DNA of 64,000 nt, taken from a plasmid. The stretch lies in the sequence record NZ_CP110904.1; one strand, written 5' to 3'. The notes below the pieces were generated by a model, which was given only the letters and a program-made list of their open reading frames with translations, was not told the origin of the DNA and made no database searches. How positions within the stretch are numbered: the first letter of the stretch is position 1; the number at the start of each line of letters is the position of its first letter. The translations under genes and the position numbers were made by a program. Below, piece after piece: positions 1 to 6,188 of this stretch.

Positions 1-501
1 TTCGGACTGGAGCAGCTGGAGCTCAAATCCAGTGACGTTGACGAACTCGATCCGGAATACCACCAGCAATTCCAGGCTATATACCCGGAGCTGTCCATGT
101 TGTCCCCGGCCGCTATCCAGAGAGCCTATGACGAGTACTGTGAATCGATGTGGGAATACCCTGAGAGGTGCGACGGATTTCTTTATCACCTTATTGGCAG
201 TACCGTCAGTTCGAATGTGTCCCGCGACAACCCGGAAAAAACAGGAAGACTCATCGCACACGCATGGCTGACAGGAGCCTCGGTTGAGGATGCCTATCGT
301 TTTGGCTCAGAGGCTCAGCAGTTCGATACCGCTCTTTCTGGGCTGGCGTATCAGGTATCCGTGGCCATGAAATTTGTTGCCGGTGATTCTGCGGCCGCAG
401 GAAATGAAGGCCATCCGATCAGCACACTTTCCGATACCTTCCGTCAGATGAGAAAAGTAAGTAGTACCCTCCTGACGGCCACACAGAACGGCCGGAAATG
501 A
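1..501 (+). CDS. hypothetical protein, 5'-partial (reading frame open to window start)
   Basis: Frame 1 is open from nt 1 to the stop at 499-501; the ORF-track ATG at 97 is internal. No family recognised. Confidence 0.4.
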   Translation, partial: FGLEQLELKSSDVDELDPEYHQQFQAIYPELSMLSPAAIQRAYDEYCESMWEYPERCDGFLYHLIGSTVSSNVSRDNPEKTGRLIAHAWLTGASVEDAYRFGSEAQQFDTALSGLAYQVSVAMKFVAGDSAAAGNEGHPISTLSDTFRQMRKVSSTLLTATQNGRK

Positions 502-516
502 TAAGCACTAACCAAT

Positions 517-696
517 ATGGATTCTAACAAAAAGCACGATGAATACGTCGACTGGCTCATTGAGCAGGCAGACGATCATGAAATAAATGCCATCAGCTCA
601 GGACTCAGAGATGCGTGGGAACTTTGTACGACCTTTCTGGCCTGTGTTTTGCTCGGCAGTGGGATGGTTCTTGCCTGCTTAAATATCACTCAGTAG
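517..696 (+). CDS. small protein (59 aa) with hydrophobic C-terminal helix
   Basis: ATG at 517 to TAG at 694-696 (MDSNKKHDEYVDWLIEQ...LACVLLGSGMVLACLNITQ). Below the ORF-track cutoff. Sits between two plus-strand genes. Confidence 0.3.
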   Translation: MDSNKKHDEYVDWLIEQADDHEINAISSGLRDAWELCTTFLACVLLGSGMVLACLNITQ

Positions 697-745
697 GGAA
701 ATCTGATGACAACTCAAATTGAAGTTATGACGGTCGCTGAGCTGC

Positions 746-1405
746 ATGCTCAACTACAACAGCTGGTGGATGATTGGCTCGGAGATATTCCGGTATGTGC
801 GACAGATCTCCGCGCCCGGTAACGGTACCGGCGGCGACATTTTTCCGGTGAAAACCCAGCAGGACTACCGTGCCGCCTACCGTAAGCTCGAAGCGGATGG
901 ATATGCACCGGCCGTTATCGAACAAATGACCACAGGCGCTGCCTACAATCTGGCTTATCCACGAATCCCGTTAAAACGCTCTGAGAACGCCACCAGCGAA
1001 CGGAAGCGAAAACCTGACGTGGACATTCAGGGAGAGCCTTGCGAGCGCTTTGTGACCCAGCGGAGCGGCGCAGCGCAGACAAAATTCAAGAATCTCCTTG
1101 TTGAGAATTTCGCGGGTCGGTGTGCGGTCACGGGATGGGTTAATGGTGGTGTGCTGGTAGCGGCTCATATCGAGCATGGGACGCGCTACAACCCTTCGAA
1201 CGGCATCCTGTTGACGCCGACAATGCACGCGCTGTTTGACGCGGATCTGATGGGTATAGACCCGTCCACACTCACCGTTCATTTTAAACCGGGCATCGAG
1301 GCGGGAGAGCTGTTTGAAGGCAAAACGCTCAACCCGTTGGTGTATGACCTGGATACAGACCGGCTGGCTGCTCGCTGGGCTGATTTCCTCGGTACCGAGG
1401 AATAG
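746..1405 (+). CDS. HNH endonuclease-motif protein (HNH_2/PF13391-like: CAVTG...AAHIEH...NGILL...HALFD)
   Basis: 219-aa ORF with a C-terminal HNH signature. An alternative upstream start at 706 (AGGGA SD) lies in another frame and stops at 822, so a frameshifted or pseudogenised N-terminus is possible. Confidence 0.6.
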   Translation: MLNYNSWWMIGSEIFRYVRQISAPGNGTGGDIFPVKTQQDYRAAYRKLEADGYAPAVIEQMTTGAAYNLAYPRIPLKRSENATSERKRKPDVDIQGEPCERFVTQRSGAAQTKFKNLLVENFAGRCAVTGWVNGGVLVAAHIEHGTRYNPSNGILLTPTMHALFDADLMGIDPSTLTVHFKPGIEAGELFEGKTLNPLVYDLDTDRLAARWADFLGTEE

Positions 1406-1519
1406 ATGGAAAATCCAGCCTATACCGGATGACAGTGTTTCCTGGTTAGGCACCTCATTCTGAGATGTGCTGACTGCACGCCACCATTTTATTGAAAACC
1501 GACAGAGTTGATACCACTA

Positions 1520-1927
1520 ATGCCAAATTACCTTACGGGATATTTAAAAGCGACCATTGTTATTTTATCTGCGGGCCTGTCAGGTTGCGACCTGGCAAAT
1601 GGTGCGACGGAAAGTGGAGTGTATCAGAAATACACGAATGGACCTTTCAGGGAGCCGACTATCGTGATGAGTCCGGGCTGGCGAATGGATGACCACGGCA
1701 AGGAAGCACTTATATTCGGGAGCAGCCAATGCCCAGATGCTAACGGCAACACTACGTCTGAGGGCGGTTGCGTCCTCATTGAGAATCACTCTGAGACTGT
1801 CGCGGTCATCGTTGTTGATGCGACAAAGCAATTCCGACGCCAGGAAACATGGACGATTGAACATAAAAAGGATCGGACCATTGTGATGCGCCCGGATAAC
1901 AGTTATGTGATGCCCTGGGTAAAATAG
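1520..1927 (+). CDS. putative lipoprotein
   Basis: N-terminus MPNYLTGYLKATIVILSAGLSGC has a signal peptide and an L-S-G-C lipobox. Confidence 0.5.
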   Translation: MPNYLTGYLKATIVILSAGLSGCDLANGATESGVYQKYTNGPFREPTIVMSPGWRMDDHGKEALIFGSSQCPDANGNTTSEGGCVLIENHSETVAVIVVDATKQFRRQETWTIEHKKDRTIVMRPDNSYVMPWVK

Positions 1928-1959
1928 CCAATTAAGTTAATCAAATTAGGATTCATACT

Positions 1960-2163
1960 ATGGGCATTCAAGATTTGGTTGGAAAAGAAAGAGAGCTGAT
2001 CGTCGTCGCACTACTGGCCCTGCATCGTGAACGCGTTAATAGTTTTAATTCAGCTTGCACGGCATGTTCATTAGCGGGGAAAGAATGGCCGGAACAGGAA
2101 ATGTTTGGTATTAACGAAGTAATGAATGCCCTCCGCATGGTTGGTGCTTTGCCTGTGAGATAA
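1960..2163 (+). CDS. hypothetical small protein (67 aa)
   Basis: ORF with AGGA 11 nt upstream of the ATG. Same strand as its neighbours. Confidence 0.3.
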   Translation: MGIQDLVGKERELIVVALLALHRERVNSFNSACTACSLAGKEWPEQEMFGINEVMNALRMVGALPVR

Positions 2164-2318
2164 TGAGACCTGCTAGCTTCGCATCTGGCTGATTGATTGC
2201 CTGACCTATAACGGATTTCATGAGTTTTGAAGAGATTCTGATGTGGACGCCGTGAACAGGCCTCTTAGCGACGAGGGCTCGTTTTTATGACTAGGCGTGG
2301 ACGCCAGTGCCAACCTGA

Positions 2319-3260
2319 ATGAACAATGGGATGCAAACCGGAAACAACATGAACACCAGAGTGAATAAGCCTCAACCCGTCAGGCTTCGCCCTGTCTTCC
2401 AGAAACTGGAAGAGCTGGGGTTAACAGGGGAAATTATTTCCATTCGCACGGACGGGAAAACTGGAACCTTAACTCCAGACCTGAAGCCTGGTATCTTCAA
2501 AACGGGTCCCTGCCAAACGAAACGGATCATGACCGGCAACTGGGTTATCGCTGACTCAAGGGACTACTTTGAACATGTTGTTCTGTGTGTTGAGCGTCCA
2601 GACGGAGCCTATGACATATTCACCGGCTCTTTCATAAAATTATATCCGGTTGAAAACTGCAAAAGCAAAATCGTCGAAATGAGTAACCCTGTCCTGGTGG
2701 GCATGACTTACTCCATCCGGAAGGTTTTTAATGGAGGAAAGTTCAGTCGGCGAGGAATTGCCTATCTCTCGATCCCCGCAGTAACATCAACAAAAGTAAC
2801 TTTTCCTTCCCGAACGTATCAGGAGGGGCAGGAACAAATCACAATGTCGAGCCCGGACCAGGCACCATTTTCCGAAGATGTCCGGAAAAACTGCGCCGGT
2901 ACGTGTGTTCTTACCGGCGTTCGAGCCAGACAAAGAACTGAGGCAGCGCACATTAAACCCCGTCATGCTGGTGGTGAGCCGGATGTGACAAACGGGATTC
3001 TACTGCGAAGTGACATCCACACCCTCTTTGACAATTGGCACTTTTCAATCGACCCTGATTCAATGAAAGCCCGTTTCAGCCCGGATGTGCTCTCCGTCGA
3101 TAAAGACTTGCTACAACTGGAAGGCAAGCAAATTGATTTTTCCCGCTTGCAAATGCCTATCAATATTGAATACCTGCGACATCACTGGAACGAATTTTTT
3201 AACCGTCATGGCAATCCATTCAGAAAGAAAGAGCCAAATAATAAAAATCAACAATTATGA
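2319..3260 (+). CDS. HNH_2-type nuclease-domain protein with unknown N-terminal domain
   Basis: C-terminal motif CVLTG...EAAHIKP...NGILL...HTLFD is paralogous to the 746-1405 HNH region. Alternative starts at 2331 and 2349. Confidence 0.6.
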   Translation: MNNGMQTGNNMNTRVNKPQPVRLRPVFQKLEELGLTGEIISIRTDGKTGTLTPDLKPGIFKTGPCQTKRIMTGNWVIADSRDYFEHVVLCVERPDGAYDIFTGSFIKLYPVENCKSKIVEMSNPVLVGMTYSIRKVFNGGKFSRRGIAYLSIPAVTSTKVTFPSRTYQEGQEQITMSSPDQAPFSEDVRKNCAGTCVLTGVRARQRTEAAHIKPRHAGGEPDVTNGILLRSDIHTLFDNWHFSIDPDSMKARFSPDVLSVDKDLLQLEGKQIDFSRLQMPINIEYLRHHWNEFFNRHGNPFRKKEPNNKNQQL

Positions 3261-3285
3261 AAAACGCCCAGTTAGCAGCAACATG

Positions 3286-3303
3286 CACTATGAGGCTATG
3301 TTA
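3286..3303. repeat. 18-bp repeat copy 1 ATGAGGCTATGTTAGCCT (internal palindrome AGGCTA-n3-TAGCCT)
   Basis: Exact 18-mer recurs at 3682-3699; the two copies bracket the small ORF 3390-3644. Confidence 0.6.
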
Positions 3304-3389
3304 GCCTAATGGCATTCTTATTTGATAAAGCTTGCTACAAGAAGTTTTGTCAATGTTCAACCTGTTTATCAAACCTATGGAGATTATTT

Positions 3390-3644
3390 ATGACTGGGAG
3401 TGGTATGAATACTGTACGCATAAACAATGAAGTGAAACACATCTCAGAGTTAGATTCCGAGACCCTTTCTCTTGAATGGAATAAACTGAAAAACGAAAAT
3501 AACGAACTGTATCGCTGCATAAAGGAAGCAAATTCTGGTTGGCGAGGTTTTGTCCTTCGTTTGATAGGGGTTCATCTGCCTGATGGTAAAACAATTGTCA
3601 TTCATGGTGTTAGCACTAAAAATGAATCTACTCACACTGAATAA
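3390..3644 (+). CDS. hypothetical small protein
   Basis: ATG at 3390 preceded by GGAG; the ORF-track ORF 3309-3644 contains it. No family recognised. Confidence 0.35.
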   Translation: MTGSGMNTVRINNEVKHISELDSETLSLEWNKLKNENNELYRCIKEANSGWRGFVLRLIGVHLPDGKTIVIHGVSTKNESTHTE

Positions 3645-3681
3645 TACACAATAGAAAAACTGTTAGTATCAAAGATCACAA

Positions 3682-3699
3682 TGAGGCTATGTTAGCCTT
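3682..3699. repeat. 18-bp repeat copy 2 ATGAGGCTATGTTAGCCT
   Basis: Identical to 3286-3303. Confidence 0.6.
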
Positions 3700-3755
3700 C
3701 GAACATTCACAAGAACTAAGAAATTCAAATGGCTTACGTTCAATTCGAGGTAAAA

Positions 3756-4040
3756 ATGATGGCAGATATCAATGACTCTTATTATGCTCGTAACGAAAAG
3801 TGGATTAGGCCAGCACTGATTGCTTTTATATTTGCATTTGGCAATAGTCTCGGTGATATTCTCGGGGTTGCGAGCCCCATAGTTTCCACAGCAAGTATGT
3901 GGTTGGCTGCAATTGCGTTTATTATCACTGGTGTAATGGTGATGTTTACAGATACGATTTCAGCACATATTTTAAAATTGTTGGCGGTCGTGGCACTGTT
4001 AGGGGCAGTCATCACTTTAGTGATTCGCTATTTCACATAG
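3756..4040 (+). CDS. small integral membrane protein (about 3 TM segments)
   Basis: GAGGT SD 5 nt before ATGATG at 3756. Hydrophobic stretches include IAFIFAFG, AAIAFIITGVMVMF and LLAVVALLGAVITLVI. Confidence 0.45.
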   Translation: MMADINDSYYARNEKWIRPALIAFIFAFGNSLGDILGVASPIVSTASMWLAAIAFIITGVMVMFTDTISAHILKLLAVVALLGAVITLVIRYFT

Positions 4041-4320
4041 AATCCCTCAATGAATGCACCGCTTGCACGCTTTCTGAGTTATTGTTTCCCTTTATAAACG
4101 TCGGCTTATGTATAGCGTTCATCTGCACAACGGGGACGTTGAGTGAATGAGAACTGCCGGATTGCGTTCCTGCATTACCACAATCAGAGATCCTGGTTGT
4201 GGTTTCTAAGAAAATTCTGAATATCGGTTCATGAGACCGGTGGTTACAACTTGTAATATATTAGACTTAGCTTTTGATTCATATATTTGTACTATACCCA
4301 CATCATTTATATGGATGTAG

Positions 4321-5133
<813 letters not shown>

Positions 5134-5420: not shown

Positions 5421-6188
5421 CTAACGATTGCCGCGCAGAAGCTGCAGCGCATCCTGCGTATCGAGTGAGAACCGGACCTGCTGACTGGCGGCCACATCGA
5501 GCGCAAATATCTTTGTGTACACTTCCGTTGATTCAAACTTCTTGTGCCCCATCAGGACCTGCAGAACCTTCGGGTGAACATGGCCATATAAAAGGTGCAT
5601 TGCGAAGCTGTGTCTGAACGTATGCGGGCTGACCGGAATACTGAATCTCACGCCGTCCCGTTCCGCTGCGTCGACGGCACGCTCAAGCCAGTTGCGTACT
5701 GTCCGGTCGGTAACTCCCCAGACCGGCATGGCCCGATGTTCACCTATTAGCTTGTCGTCCTCGAATCTTTCCCGCGTGCTCGCAAATAGCCGACGCATTT
5801 CATCCACGTATCCGGGGTCTGACAGCGGGATCACCCGGTTCGCACTTTTTTCCTTTTTCGGGCGACCGCCAGCTGTGCGGCGTTGTTTGGCCGTACGGAC
5901 CACCACGTGCGGGATCTAATCATTGAGGTGAAAGTTCCTTCTTCTGAGTGCCAGTGTTTCGTTGAGGCGTGCGCCGGTGTTCCACAGCGTGTTAATAAAG
6001 GCGTGTTGATTCCAGTCGGGTAAGTAATGCAGCAGACCAGCCACTTCCGGTGCCAGAAGGTATTTAGGCATCTCGTTATAGTGCCTGGCCATTTCCCGCA
6101 GCGAGAGAGCCCGGCCGTAGTCAAACGGTGCAGAAGTGGCAGTCACCTGCAGGGCAGGGGAGTGATGAACAAAAGCGGGCAGATTCAT
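5421..6188 (-). pseudogene. tyrosine recombinase (phage-integrase/Xer/ResD-like) interrupted by an in-frame TAG
   Basis: ORFs 5916-6188 and 5421-5906 share one frame and are separated by an amber codon (plus-strand CTA at 5916-5918). The C-terminal part has HTFRHSFAMHLL...GH...TEVYT, an R..H..Y catalytic motif. Confidence 0.7.

What the first reader, a model, noticed from the sequence alone, without database searches (positions are those of the whole stretch)
517..3260. Two paralogous HNH-motif nuclease genes with interleaved small membrane/lipoprotein ORFs; possible frameshift at the first
Genes 746-1405 and 2319-3260 both end in a C-x-x-T-G…AAHI…NGILL…H(A/T)LFD HNH_2-type domain. Their N-terminal regions are unrelated. 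The first has a well-placed SD+ATG at 706 in a different frame that stops at 822, so its N-terminus may be frameshifted or pseudogenised. Tandem solitary HNH nucleases on a plasmid could be restriction-like, anti-conjugation or defence effectors. Four small ORFs around them are unexplained: the 59-aa membrane ORF at 517, the lipoprotein at 1520, the 67-aa ORF at 1960 and the membrane ORF at 3756.
Basis: partly seen in the sequence, partly recalled or inferred. Interest (0 to 1): 0.55.

Follow-up and report, generated by a model that had tools for sequence, protein, structure and literature searches.

The report
Two plasmid HNH nucleases, one deletion-truncated
Two restriction-enzyme-type HNH nuclease genes belong to the conserved backbone of IncHI resistance plasmids, and the first is not frameshifted: a 1.4-kb deletion fixed in this plasmid lineage removed its first 75 codons.

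Summary
Both ORFs carry a Pfam HNH_2 domain with all catalytic residues intact. They share only a C-terminal nuclease module of about 115 residues (hhalign E 2e-18), and their N-terminal domains are unrelated.

The suspected frameshift is a deletion scar. Related IncHI-like contigs (L016-L018) keep the undeleted order: 401-aa gene, o90, o117, o163, o75, HNH1 (268 aa), lipoprotein, orf67, HNH2. In the window, 1,382 bp are missing. Codon 38/39 of o117 (the "SD+ATG at 706" ORF) is joined out of frame to codon 76 of HNH1, and the join itself creates the TAA at 820-822. All 50 pNDM-CIT-type plasmids in PLSDB that contain this segment are at least 99% identical across it, so it is not a sequencing error.

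R27-type IncHI1 plasmids carry the mirror-image defect, a 5'-deleted HNH2. IncHI2 and two other lineages keep both genes intact.

The nuclease domain is closest to the modification-dependent restriction enzyme VcaM4I. No methyltransferase is adjacent, and relatives sit beside Lamassu and AIPR defence genes. The likeliest role, inferred only, is solitary Type IV-like defence or competition nucleases with orphan sensor domains.

The genes between and upstream of the two nuclease genes differ from lineage to lineage. The finding is ordinary to moderately interesting.

The parts
1..501 (+). 3' end of a conserved 401-aa IncHI backbone gene of unknown function (WP_015063155). It marks the upstream edge of the variable region.
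   Evidence: Annotation. It is 84% identical at the protein level to the R27-type copy and 86.5% identical at the DNA level to L016.
517..696 (+). orf59, a small ORF with a C-terminal hydrophobic segment. It is specific to the pNDM-CIT-type lineage.
   Evidence: Only its first 18 codons have a counterpart in R27-type plasmids, where that ORF stops after 20 codons. L016 carries an unrelated 90-aa membrane ORF at this position.
706..822 (+). ORF706, the 38-codon 5' stub of the 117-aa gene o117. Its stop codon TAA 820-822 is created by the deletion junction.
   Evidence: Window 685-821 matches L016 4708-4844 at 94.9%. o117 begins MTTQIEVMTVAELH...DLRAR and continues YPFQ....
821..822 (.). Deletion junction. 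1,382 bp are missing relative to L016 4845-6225, with 1-nt microhomology (A).
   Evidence: Three-way alignment of the window with the left and right flanks in L016. Homology to R27-type and IncHI2 HNH1 genes also starts at 821-824.
746..1405 (+). HNH1-delta, the 5'-truncated HNH_2 nuclease gene. Only 821-1405 (codons 76-268 of the intact gene) is homologous. The 25 codons from 746 to 820 lie in o117 sequence read in another frame. The start codon is uncertain: ATG 746, ATG 770 or GTG 797. Catalytic residues are H141, N152, H161 and D165.
   Evidence: Pfam HNH_2. Intact homologues are 268-271 aa. RefSeq start calls are inconsistent. Catalytic residues were mapped through the VcaM4I alignment.
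1520..1927 (+). A 135-aa lipoprotein (lipobox LSGC). It is conserved in the R27-type and L016 lineages only.
   Evidence: 6 clusters in 5.8 billion proteins. dN/dS is 0.33-0.40. IncHI2 has an unrelated lipoprotein at this position.
1960..2163 (+). orf67, a real small protein-coding gene of unknown function. It is shared with the L016 lineage and absent from R27-type and IncHI2 plasmids.
   Evidence: dN/dS is 0.11 at dS 0.70 against L016. There is no hit in L003 or L004.
2349..3260 (+). HNH2, an intact 303-aa HNH_2 nuclease. The longest possible ORF starts at 2319. It has an orphan N-terminal domain of about 165 aa. Catalytic residues are H211, N225, H234 and D238 in 313-aa numbering.
   Evidence: Pfam E 7e-13. 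The family has only 13 clusters. The N-domain has only 15 hits among 1.84 billion representatives. The catalytic residues are invariant in the alignment of ten homologues; in the 13-sequence alignment only the frameshifted variant P0012 departs. dN/dS is 0.26 against L016.
3390..3644 (+). orf84 (the longest ORF starts at 3309), a small AT-rich ORF of unknown function.
   Evidence: It is frameshifted in R27-type plasmids.
3756..4040 (+). A small multi-pass membrane protein (the ORF opens at 3729). It is homologous to o101 of L016.
   Evidence: 71.6% DNA identity to L016 9109-9383. dN/dS is 0.38.
3271..3307 (+). Copy 1 of a 37-nt direct repeat. Its core ATGAGGCTATGTTAGCCT contains the palindrome AGGCTA-TGT-TAGCCT. 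It lies just upstream of ATG 3309.
   Evidence: family D1.
3662..3698 (+). Copy 2 of the same repeat, upstream of the membrane ORF.
   Evidence: family D1.

Best explanation
Shown: window 1-4300 is backbone DNA of pNDM-CIT-type IncHI conjugative plasmids. It carries two free-standing nuclease genes that are conserved, in the same order, across IncHI lineages. Each protein has a lineage-restricted N-terminal domain of unknown fold, a linker, and a shared C-terminal HNH_2 (restriction-endonuclease-type beta-beta-alpha-Me) module of about 115 aa with an intact H-N-H(+D) active site.

Shown: in this lineage an illegitimate-recombination deletion of 1,382 bp removed four things. These are the 3' two-thirds of the upstream gene o117, two small genes (o163 and o75), the promoter-proximal signals of HNH1, and the first 75 codons of HNH1. 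The 'SD+ATG at 706' ORF is the o117 stub. The HNH1 ORF is a remnant that lacks most of its N-terminal domain and its native start. HNH2 is intact.

Inferred: the intact proteins act as solitary, methyltransferase-less DNA endonucleases of the Type IV kind. The N-terminal domain would recognise a feature of foreign DNA, such as a modification, and license the HNH domain to cut. This would protect the plasmid's host from phages or rival mobile elements.

Inferred: the two genes are at least partly redundant or individually dispensable, because different lineages have lost the 5' end of one or the other. The genes in the slots upstream of HNH1 and between the two HNH genes are unrelated cargo.
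For: Identity and lineage:
- Window 1-4300 is 100% identical to many large conjugative Enterobacterales plasmids, including matches to NC_019360 (pNDM-CIT). The lineage naming comes from 10.1101/334409.

Deletion:
- Window 685-821 matches L016 4708-4844 (94.9%) and window 821-2218 matches L016 6226-7632 (84%). The junction is clean, with 1 nt of microhomology.
- Intact HNH1 proteins of 268-295 aa are found in R27-type, IncHI2, L013 and L016 lineages.
- Their N-terminal 75 codons are under purifying selection (dN/dS 0.085), so the long form is ancestral.
- 50 plasmid records match window 500-830 at 99% identity or more; 49 of them span it, junction included.

Domains:
- Pfam HNH_2 in both proteins.
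- Family profiles hit the HNH domain of VcaM4I, PDB 6yex (E 6.6e-7 and 2e-3).
- VcaM4I catalytic residues H224, N241, D250 and D254 (PMC7897488) align with H, N, H and D residues that are invariant in the main family alignments (in one search only the frameshifted P0012 departs).
- Only the C-terminal 114 columns are shared between the two families.

No nearby methyltransferase:
- None is annotated within the neighbourhood. The nearest annotated cytosine methyltransferase is about 38 kb away in NZ_CP032179.

Defence context of relatives:
- P0030 (41% identical, full length) lies beside an integrase and a Lamassu-like gene set.
- P0035 lies in an island with an AIPR abortive-infection gene and a second HNH_2 gene.
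- There are weak PADLOC HNH and NCBIfam PT-DNA restriction-endonuclease hits and PHROG hits to the same C-terminal module.

Reciprocal loss:
- R27-type plasmids lack 502 bp covering orf67 and about 69 codons of HNH2.

Variable slots:
-.
Against: - No biochemical or genetic test of either protein was found in the searched literature.
- The N-terminal domains match no Pfam, NCBIfam, PADLOC or PDB family. Both AlphaFold models are poor (pLDDT 46 and 48), so a sensor role is an analogy, not a finding.
- These plasmids themselves carry a cytosine methyltransferase. That would conflict with a simple 5mC-dependent specificity.
- Whether HNH1-delta is dead is not settled. The remnant has no internal stop or frameshift. 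On its own short branch about 6 non-synonymous and about 7 synonymous changes are estimated (my three-point arithmetic on the distances). This number is too small to separate drift from selection, and part of the branch predates the deletion.
Confidence: 0.55

Rival explanations
1. HNH1 carries a true frameshift or a sequencing error. ORF706 and ORF746 would be the two halves of one gene, so the original N-terminus is encoded at 706-822.
For: ORF706 has a plausible SD and ATG, and it ends inside the 5' end of the HNH1 ORF in another frame.
Against: - The ORF706 peptide is the N-terminus of a different 117-aa protein, o117, in L016-L018.
- It has no similarity to the N-terminus of intact HNH1 proteins.
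- DNA homology to HNH1 genes starts abruptly at 821.
- 49 independent plasmid assemblies span the junction at 99% identity or more.
Confidence: 0.02
2. HNH1-delta is not a dead remnant. It is still translated from ATG 746, ATG 770 or GTG 797, or by re-initiation after the o117-stub stop, and works as a sensor-less or differently regulated nuclease.
For: - 194 homologous codons remain open, and all catalytic residues are intact.
- dN/dS against R27-type is 0.15 and against L016 is 0.30.
- The window copy is not more diverged from IncHI2 than the intact R27 copy is (dN 0.127 against 0.142).
- In VcaM4I, removing the sensor domain alone leaves a non-toxic enzyme, because the linker helix still blocks the active site (PMC7897488). 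A truncated protein could therefore be tolerated.
Against: - The native start and RBS and 75 of about 105 N-domain codons are gone, including most residues that are invariant in the family.
- No candidate start has a good SD at proper spacing (sequence), and RefSeq pipelines disagree on the start.
- The lineage-specific branch is too short to show selection.
- The pNDM-CIT-type plasmids are nearly identical to each other here, which fits a recent event.
Confidence: 0.25
3. The HNH genes are the nuclease halves of Type II/IIS restriction-modification systems, like the HNH_2 enzymes HphI and BbrI. Their methyltransferases would be encoded elsewhere on the plasmid.
For: - HNH_2/COG3440 includes Type II enzymes (PMC5714182).
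- PADLOC model PDLC03546, 'Type II restriction enzyme', gives weak hits.
- A cytosine methyltransferase exists on these plasmids.
Against: - No methyltransferase is annotated among the neighbouring genes of the HNH genes in any of the compared lineages that hold both of them.
- The only annotated one is about 38 kb away and is not syntenic with the HNH genes.
- Losing the 5' end of either HNH gene is tolerated.
Confidence: 0.07
4. The nucleases and the interleaved small ORFs (lipoprotein, orf67, membrane ORFs) form toxin-immunity or addiction modules.
For: Small genes always lie between and around the two HNH genes. One lineage has a RelB-like N-terminus in the intervening gene.
Against: - The intervening genes are not homologous between lineages. 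The lipoprotein is absent from IncHI2, apart from an unrelated lipoprotein. orf67 is absent from R27-type and IncHI2. L013 has other genes there.
- The R27-type lineage lost orf67 and keeps an intact HNH1.
- A lipoprotein is in the wrong compartment to neutralise a cytoplasmic DNase (established knowledge of lipoprotein export).
Confidence: 0.05
5. The proteins serve plasmid biology rather than defence. Examples would be processing DNA during conjugation or replication, or attacking competing IncHI plasmids.
For: The genes occupy a conserved syntenic position in the backbone next to hha/hns-type regulators in all IncHI lineages examined. The families are almost confined to these plasmids.
Against: - Each gene is dispensable in some successful lineage.
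- More distant full-length relatives of HNH1 are chromosomal island genes beside defence systems, not transfer genes.
Confidence: 0.12

Closest known systems
VcaM4I / TspA15I group of EVE-HNH modification-dependent (Type IV) restriction endonucleases (PDB 6yex; PMC7897488, PMC6765204)
   Same: - The order is the same: N-terminal non-catalytic domain, linker, then a C-terminal HNH domain of the HNH_2 type.
- The HNH domain is detectably homologous (profile E 6.6e-7 and 2e-3).
- The catalytic positions H224, N241, D250 and D254 are occupied by H, N, H and D.
- Both are solitary genes without a methyltransferase.
   Different: - The N-terminal domains here show no sequence similarity to EVE or other PUA domains, or to any other known sensor.
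- The third catalytic residue is a canonical His rather than Asp.
- A C-terminal extension of about 50 aa is conserved after the HNH core.
- Modification dependence is untested.
Phosphorothioate-dependent SBD-HNH restriction endonucleases (NCBIfam NF045808, 'PT-DNA_restrict')
   Same: There are weak matches to the nuclease half of the model (E 8.5e-7 for HNH2 and 2.7e-3 for HNH1).
   Different: The scores of 17-28 bits are far below the 180-bit cut-off. Only the HNH part aligns, with no match to the sulphur-binding domain.
Type II/IIS HNH_2 restriction endonucleases HphI and BbrI (His-Me finger group 6, COG3440; PMC5714182)
   Same: They belong to the same Pfam family, PF13391, and their recognition domains likewise lie outside the His-Me finger and are not predictable from sequence.
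   Different: Those enzymes have cognate methyltransferases. None is linked to the genes here.
Phage and prophage proteins of PHROG 23050, 20585 and 21425 (function unknown)
   Same: They share the whole C-terminal nuclease module of about 110 aa (E 3e-36 for HNH1 and 2e-21 for HNH2).
   Different: The PHROG profiles have different and longer N-terminal regions of about 200-270 positions that do not match.
'hnhc' backbone gene of IncHI5 plasmids (PMC6339943)
   Same: It is an HNH endonuclease gene in an IncHI backbone that is repeatedly inactivated, there by IS insertions. This parallels the recurrent 5' deletions seen here.
   Different: Homology between hnhc and HNH1 or HNH2 was not tested.

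Membership tests
Pfam HNH_2 (PF13391) / His-Me finger nucleases | The score is above the Pfam gathering threshold. | tested here: met
   30.2 bits (HNH1-delta) and 48.6 bits (HNH2) against a cut-off of 21. All 11 and all 10 scanned family members match.
Pfam HNH_2 (PF13391) / His-Me finger nucleases | The catalytic His (general base), structural Asn and metal-ligand residues are conserved. | tested here: met
   HNH1 has H141, N152, H161 and D165. HNH2 has H211, N225, H234 and D238. They align with VcaM4I H224, N241, D250 and D254. They are invariant; two of them drop to 'nearly invariant' because of the frameshifted variant P0012.
Modification-dependent (Type IV) sensor-HNH restriction endonucleases | A C-terminal HNH nuclease domain homologous to those of characterised members. 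| tested here: met
   Profile against PDB hits 6yex (VcaM4I) with E 6.6e-7 for the HNH1 family and 2e-3 for the HNH2 family.
Modification-dependent (Type IV) sensor-HNH restriction endonucleases | A recognisable N-terminal modified-base sensor domain (PUA superfamily EVE/SRA/YTH/ASCH, winged helix, SBD or NEco). | tested here: inconclusive
   There is no sequence match in Pfam, NCBIfam, PADLOC or PDB. The fold could not be assessed: AlphaFold pLDDT was 46 and 48, and Foldseek found nothing at E 1e-3 or better.
Modification-dependent (Type IV) sensor-HNH restriction endonucleases | No cognate methyltransferase. | tested here: met
   None is annotated in the neighbourhood in any of the compared lineages that hold both HNH genes. 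The nearest annotated cytosine methyltransferase is about 38 kb away.
Modification-dependent (Type IV) sensor-HNH restriction endonucleases | Cleavage or restriction depends on modified DNA. | not testable with these tools
   This needs phage plating and in vitro digestion assays.
Type II/IIS restriction-modification systems with an HNH_2 nuclease | A linked cognate DNA methyltransferase gene. | tested here: not met
   No methyltransferase is adjacent in any compared locus.
Toxin-immunity / toxin-antitoxin module | A conserved adjacent partner gene that co-occurs with the nuclease. | tested here: not met
   The genes between and beside the HNH genes are non-homologous between lineages. orf67 was lost together with the HNH2 5' end in R27-type plasmids, while HNH1 there stays intact.
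HNH homing endonucleases | Residence in an intron or intein, or sporadic insertion next to a cognate target gene. | tested here: not met
   They are free-standing genes at one syntenic backbone position in all IncHI lineages examined. There are no intron matches to report, but an Rfam search was not run.

The most novel reading that the evidence does not exclude
HNH1 and HNH2 could be two previously unrecognised families of solitary defence or competition nucleases. Their orphan N-terminal domains would be new kinds of DNA-feature sensors, almost confined to IncHI resistance plasmids. The two would act redundantly, which would explain why every lineage examined keeps at least one intact copy while tolerating 5' loss of the other.
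Probability: 0.3. Interest if true: 0.55.

Novelty: new variant of a known kind. Interest (0 to 1): 0.3.

Why it matters
IncHI plasmids are major carriers of carbapenemase, mcr and typhoid multidrug-resistance genes. If their two conserved HNH_2 nucleases are Type IV-like defence enzymes, they would influence two things. One is which phages can attack plasmid-bearing hosts. The other is which foreign DNA can enter those hosts. Their N-terminal domains would then be new sensor modules.

For annotation, the result is practical. In pNDM-CIT-type plasmids the 'HNH endonuclease' gene, annotated with start 770 or 797, is a deletion remnant. ORF706 is the stub of another gene. The equivalent defect affects the second HNH gene in R27-type plasmids. 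None of this is very surprising to a specialist.

Tried and rejected
1. Frameshift hypothesis. ORF706 was aligned with intact HNH1 N-termini and showed no similarity. A tblastn search of the peptide in PLSDB found only the same lineage. It was resolved only when contigs carrying P0015 showed the undeleted locus.
2. Structure route to the N-terminal domains. Two AlphaFold2 runs on shallow family alignments gave pLDDT 46 and 48. Foldseek against the PDB gave nothing at E 1e-3 or better. These models are not used as evidence.
3. Sequence route to the N-terminal domains. Pfam at E up to 5 over all family members, NCBIfam, PADLOC, PHROGs and PDB profiles gave no hit outside the HNH module. An exhaustive phmmer search with the HNH2 N-domain against 1.84 billion representatives found only 15 proteins. 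Most are plainly the same small family; the exceptions are weak multi-stretch matches in very long proteins, read as repeat artefacts.
4. A weak Imm11 hit in two HNH2 relatives overlaps the HNH domain and falls below threshold. It was rejected.
5. Selection test for HNH1-delta. Pairwise dN/dS is low, but the window-specific branch is too short to decide.
6. Promoter and terminator scans found no more sites than in shuffled sequence.
7. Literature searches found no functional study of these genes.
8. I first labelled the lineage 'IncHI3' in my notes. The literature calls pNDM-CIT-like plasmids a divergent IncHI1 clade, or IncHI4 in the Liang scheme.


Full report
**1. What is there**

The first 4.3 kb of the window are 100% identical to many large conjugative plasmids of Citrobacter, Enterobacter, Klebsiella, Escherichia, Leclercia and Pantoea. 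A shorter stretch also matches NC_019360, pNDM-CIT. The replicons are typed IncHI1A/IncHI1B. The literature treats this pNDM-CIT-like group as a divergent IncHI1 clade, or IncHI4 in the Liang scheme (10.1101/334409).

- 517-696 (59 aa)
- 706-822 (38 aa)
- 746-1405 (219 aa)
- 1508/1520-1927 (lipoprotein with lipobox LSGC)
- 1960-2163 (67 aa)
- 2319/2349-3260 (313 or 303 aa)
- 3309/3390-3644
- 3729/3756-4040

**2. The two nucleases**

Both large ORFs pass Pfam HNH_2 PF13391, at E 4e-7 and 7e-13 and above the gathering score. BLASTP aligns their C-terminal 118 residues at 30% identity (E 4e-11).

Profile-profile comparison of the two families aligns only the last 114 columns (probability 99%, E 1.9e-18). 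Nothing aligns in the N-terminal halves. They are therefore paralogous only in a nuclease module of about 115 aa: the HNH core plus a conserved C-terminal extension.

The family profiles hit one solved structure, the HNH domain of the EVE-HNH modification-dependent restriction enzyme VcaM4I (6yex), at E 6.6e-7 for the HNH1 family and 2e-3 for the HNH2 family. The experimentally validated catalytic residues of VcaM4I are H224, N241, D250 and D254 (PMC7897488). They align with H141, N152, H161 and D165 of the window's first protein, and with H211, N225, H234 and D238 of the second. These residues are invariant in the main family alignments; in the 13-sequence alignment only the frameshifted variant P0012 departs.

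**3. The 'frameshift' is a deletion scar**

RefSeq pipelines disagree on the start of the first gene, placing it at window 770 or 797. Intact homologues are longer:
- 268 aa on R27-type IncHI1 plasmids
- 271 aa on IncHI2 plasmids
- 268-295 aa in nine clusters with hundreds of members

DNA and protein homology to all of these begins abruptly at window 821, which is codon 26 of the 746 ORF and codon 76 of the intact genes. The ORF706 peptide does not resemble the missing N-terminus.

Contigs that carry the close homologue P0015 (L016-L018, from Salmonella and relatives) settle the matter. Their gene order is: 401-aa gene, o90, o117, o163, o75, HNH1 (268 aa), lipoprotein (135 aa), orf67, HNH2 (291 aa), o98, o101.

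Window 685-821 matches L016 4708-4844 at 94.9%. Window 821-2218 matches L016 6226-7632 at 84%. The three-way alignment shows a clean junction with one base of microhomology and 1,382 bp missing.

o117 begins MTTQIEVMTVAELH...DLRAR and then continues YPFQ.... The window has the same 38 codons followed by a TAA that the junction itself creates. So ORF706 is the 5' stub of o117. The deletion also removed o163 (a secreted protein), o75 (a membrane protein) and the first 75 codons of HNH1 together with its start signals.

The long form is ancestral, for two reasons. It occurs in four other lineages, and its N-terminal 75 codons evolve under purifying selection (dN/dS 0.085 between R27-type and IncHI2).

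The scar is not an assembly artefact. Fifty PLSDB plasmids from eight genera match window 500-830 at 99% identity or more, and 49 of them span it, junction included.

**4. Is the remnant alive?**

The 194 homologous codons are open and the catalytic residues are intact. Pairwise dN/dS is 0.15 against R27-type and 0.30 against L016. The window copy is no further from IncHI2 than the intact R27 copy is.

Splitting the three pairwise distances among branches (my arithmetic) gives the window-specific branch dN of about 0.014 and dS of about 0.047. That is roughly six non-synonymous and seven synonymous changes. This is too few to decide, and part of the branch predates the deletion.

The remnant has lost most of the invariant N-domain residues, and none of its candidate starts has a convincing RBS. 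I rate it more likely an inert or sensor-less remnant (about 0.7) than a functional enzyme (about 0.25).

In VcaM4I, removing the sensor domain alone is not toxic, because the linker helix still occludes the active site. By analogy this would explain why such a remnant can persist.

**5. Recurrent, reciprocal decay**

R27-type IncHI1 plasmids show the mirror image. Relative to L016, 502 bp are replaced by 34 bp. This removes orf67 and about 69 codons of HNH2, while HNH1 stays intact. R27-type plasmids also keep the 3' part of o117 rather than the 5' part.

IncHI2, the L013 lineage and the L016 lineage keep both nucleases intact. In IncHI5, a backbone HNH gene is repeatedly split by IS elements (PMC6339943); its homology to the genes here was not tested. 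Each gene is therefore individually dispensable. All five lineages examined retain at least one intact copy.

**6. The small ORFs**

| ORF | Conservation | Selection or other evidence |
|---|---|---|
| Lipoprotein (1520-1927) | R27-type (84% aa) and L016 only; six clusters in 5.8 billion proteins | dN/dS 0.33-0.40 |
| orf67 (1960-2163) | Shared with L016; absent from R27-type and IncHI2 | dN/dS 0.11 at dS 0.70, so clearly a real gene |
| Membrane ORF (3756-4040) | Homologous to o101 of L016 | dN/dS 0.38 |
| orf59 (517-696) | Lineage-specific | Only an 18-codon vestige in R27-type |

IncHI2 has an unrelated lipoprotein in the slot between the two HNH genes. L013 has a 42-aa ORF and a 174-aa protein with a RelB-like N-terminus there.

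None of the small ORFs has a Pfam, NCBIfam, PADLOC or PHROG match. The slots upstream of HNH1 and between HNH1 and HNH2 are variable cargo sites, not parts of a conserved nuclease system.

**7. Likely function**

Shown:
- The proteins have a restriction-endonuclease-type HNH_2 module with an intact active site.
- That module is fused C-terminally to lineage-restricted domains.
- No methyltransferase is linked.
- The same nuclease-plus-linker module is combined with other N-terminal regions in relatives of 429-465 aa (P0032 and P0034-P0037) and in phage protein families.
- Relatives sit in chromosomal islands beside an integrase and a Lamassu-like gene set, and beside an AIPR abortive-infection gene with a second HNH_2 gene.

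This modular layout, N-terminal sensor plus C-terminal HNH with no methylase, is the one described for modification-dependent restriction enzymes (PMC6765204; PMC12191111).

Inferred: the intact proteins are solitary Type IV-like nucleases whose N-domains recognise some feature of foreign DNA.

Caveats:
- The N-domains are orphans. The HNH2 N-domain has only 15 hits in 1.84 billion representative proteins.
- No fold could be obtained.
- These plasmids carry their own cytosine methyltransferase, so a plain 5mC specificity is unlikely.
- No experimental study was found.

I put about 0.4 on the defence-nuclease function and about 0.95 on the deletion anatomy.

**8. Verdict**

The finding is a conserved but uncharacterised pair of HNH_2 nucleases in IncHI backbones, one of which is a deletion remnant in this lineage. 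It is a new variant of a known kind and of modest interest.

Noticed in passing
window 3271-3307 and 3662-3698: A 37-nt direct repeat (81% identical). Its identical 18-nt core ATGAGGCTATGTTAGCCT holds the palindrome AGGCTA-TGT-TAGCCT. One copy lies just before ATG 3309 and the other about 30 nt before ATG 3729. It could be a shared operator or a terminator-like hairpin for the two small AT-rich genes.
   Followed up: no
window 3150-4350: GC content falls from about 50-56% to about 36-42% over the segment holding orf84 and the membrane ORF. The segment is AT-rich and lies near hha/hns-type genes in related plasmids, so it could be an H-NS-silenced region.
   Followed up: no
L003 5112-5145 (R27-type IncHI1, NZ_OP242285) against L016 7346-7847: R27-type plasmids have the reciprocal defect. 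A 502-bp stretch covering orf67 and about 69 codons of HNH2 is replaced by 34 bp, so their annotated 196-aa 'HNH endonuclease' is a 5'-truncated HNH2.
   Followed up: yes
L003 6254-6521: The R27-type counterpart of window orf84/orf111 is split between two reading frames (two tblastn pieces in different frames) and is not annotated. It is probably a frameshifted pseudogene there.
   Followed up: partly
window 4327-4938 (+); window 5421-5906 and 5916-6188 (-): There is an IS3-family transposase fragment holding only the rve core domain (Pfam E 4e-25), with no N-terminal part. Downstream are two adjacent minus-strand ORFs. The larger has the C-terminal part of a phage-integrase domain, which suggests a tyrosine recombinase gene split by a stop or frameshift.
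   Followed up: partly
L005 (NZ_CP044111, Klebsiella michiganensis) 3250-3541: One pNDM-CIT-type relative has a further deletion that removes the 401-aa gene, orf59 and the first 8 codons of ORF706. Homology to the window starts only at window 729.
   Followed up: partly
L021 7001-13136 (Enterobacter ludwigii chromosome): Two long HNH_2 genes (464 and 472 aa) flank an AIPR abortive-infection gene in a chromosomal island. This is another case of paired HNH_2 nucleases.
   Followed up: no
L012 19519-22715 (NZ_CP032179, about 25 kb from the HNH genes): The same plasmid type carries two TIR-domain genes with a TRAFs-binding-domain gene and a DUF4231 gene. It also carries an ATP-dependent helicase gene pair next to the HNH region. 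These are further candidate defence cargo.
   Followed up: no
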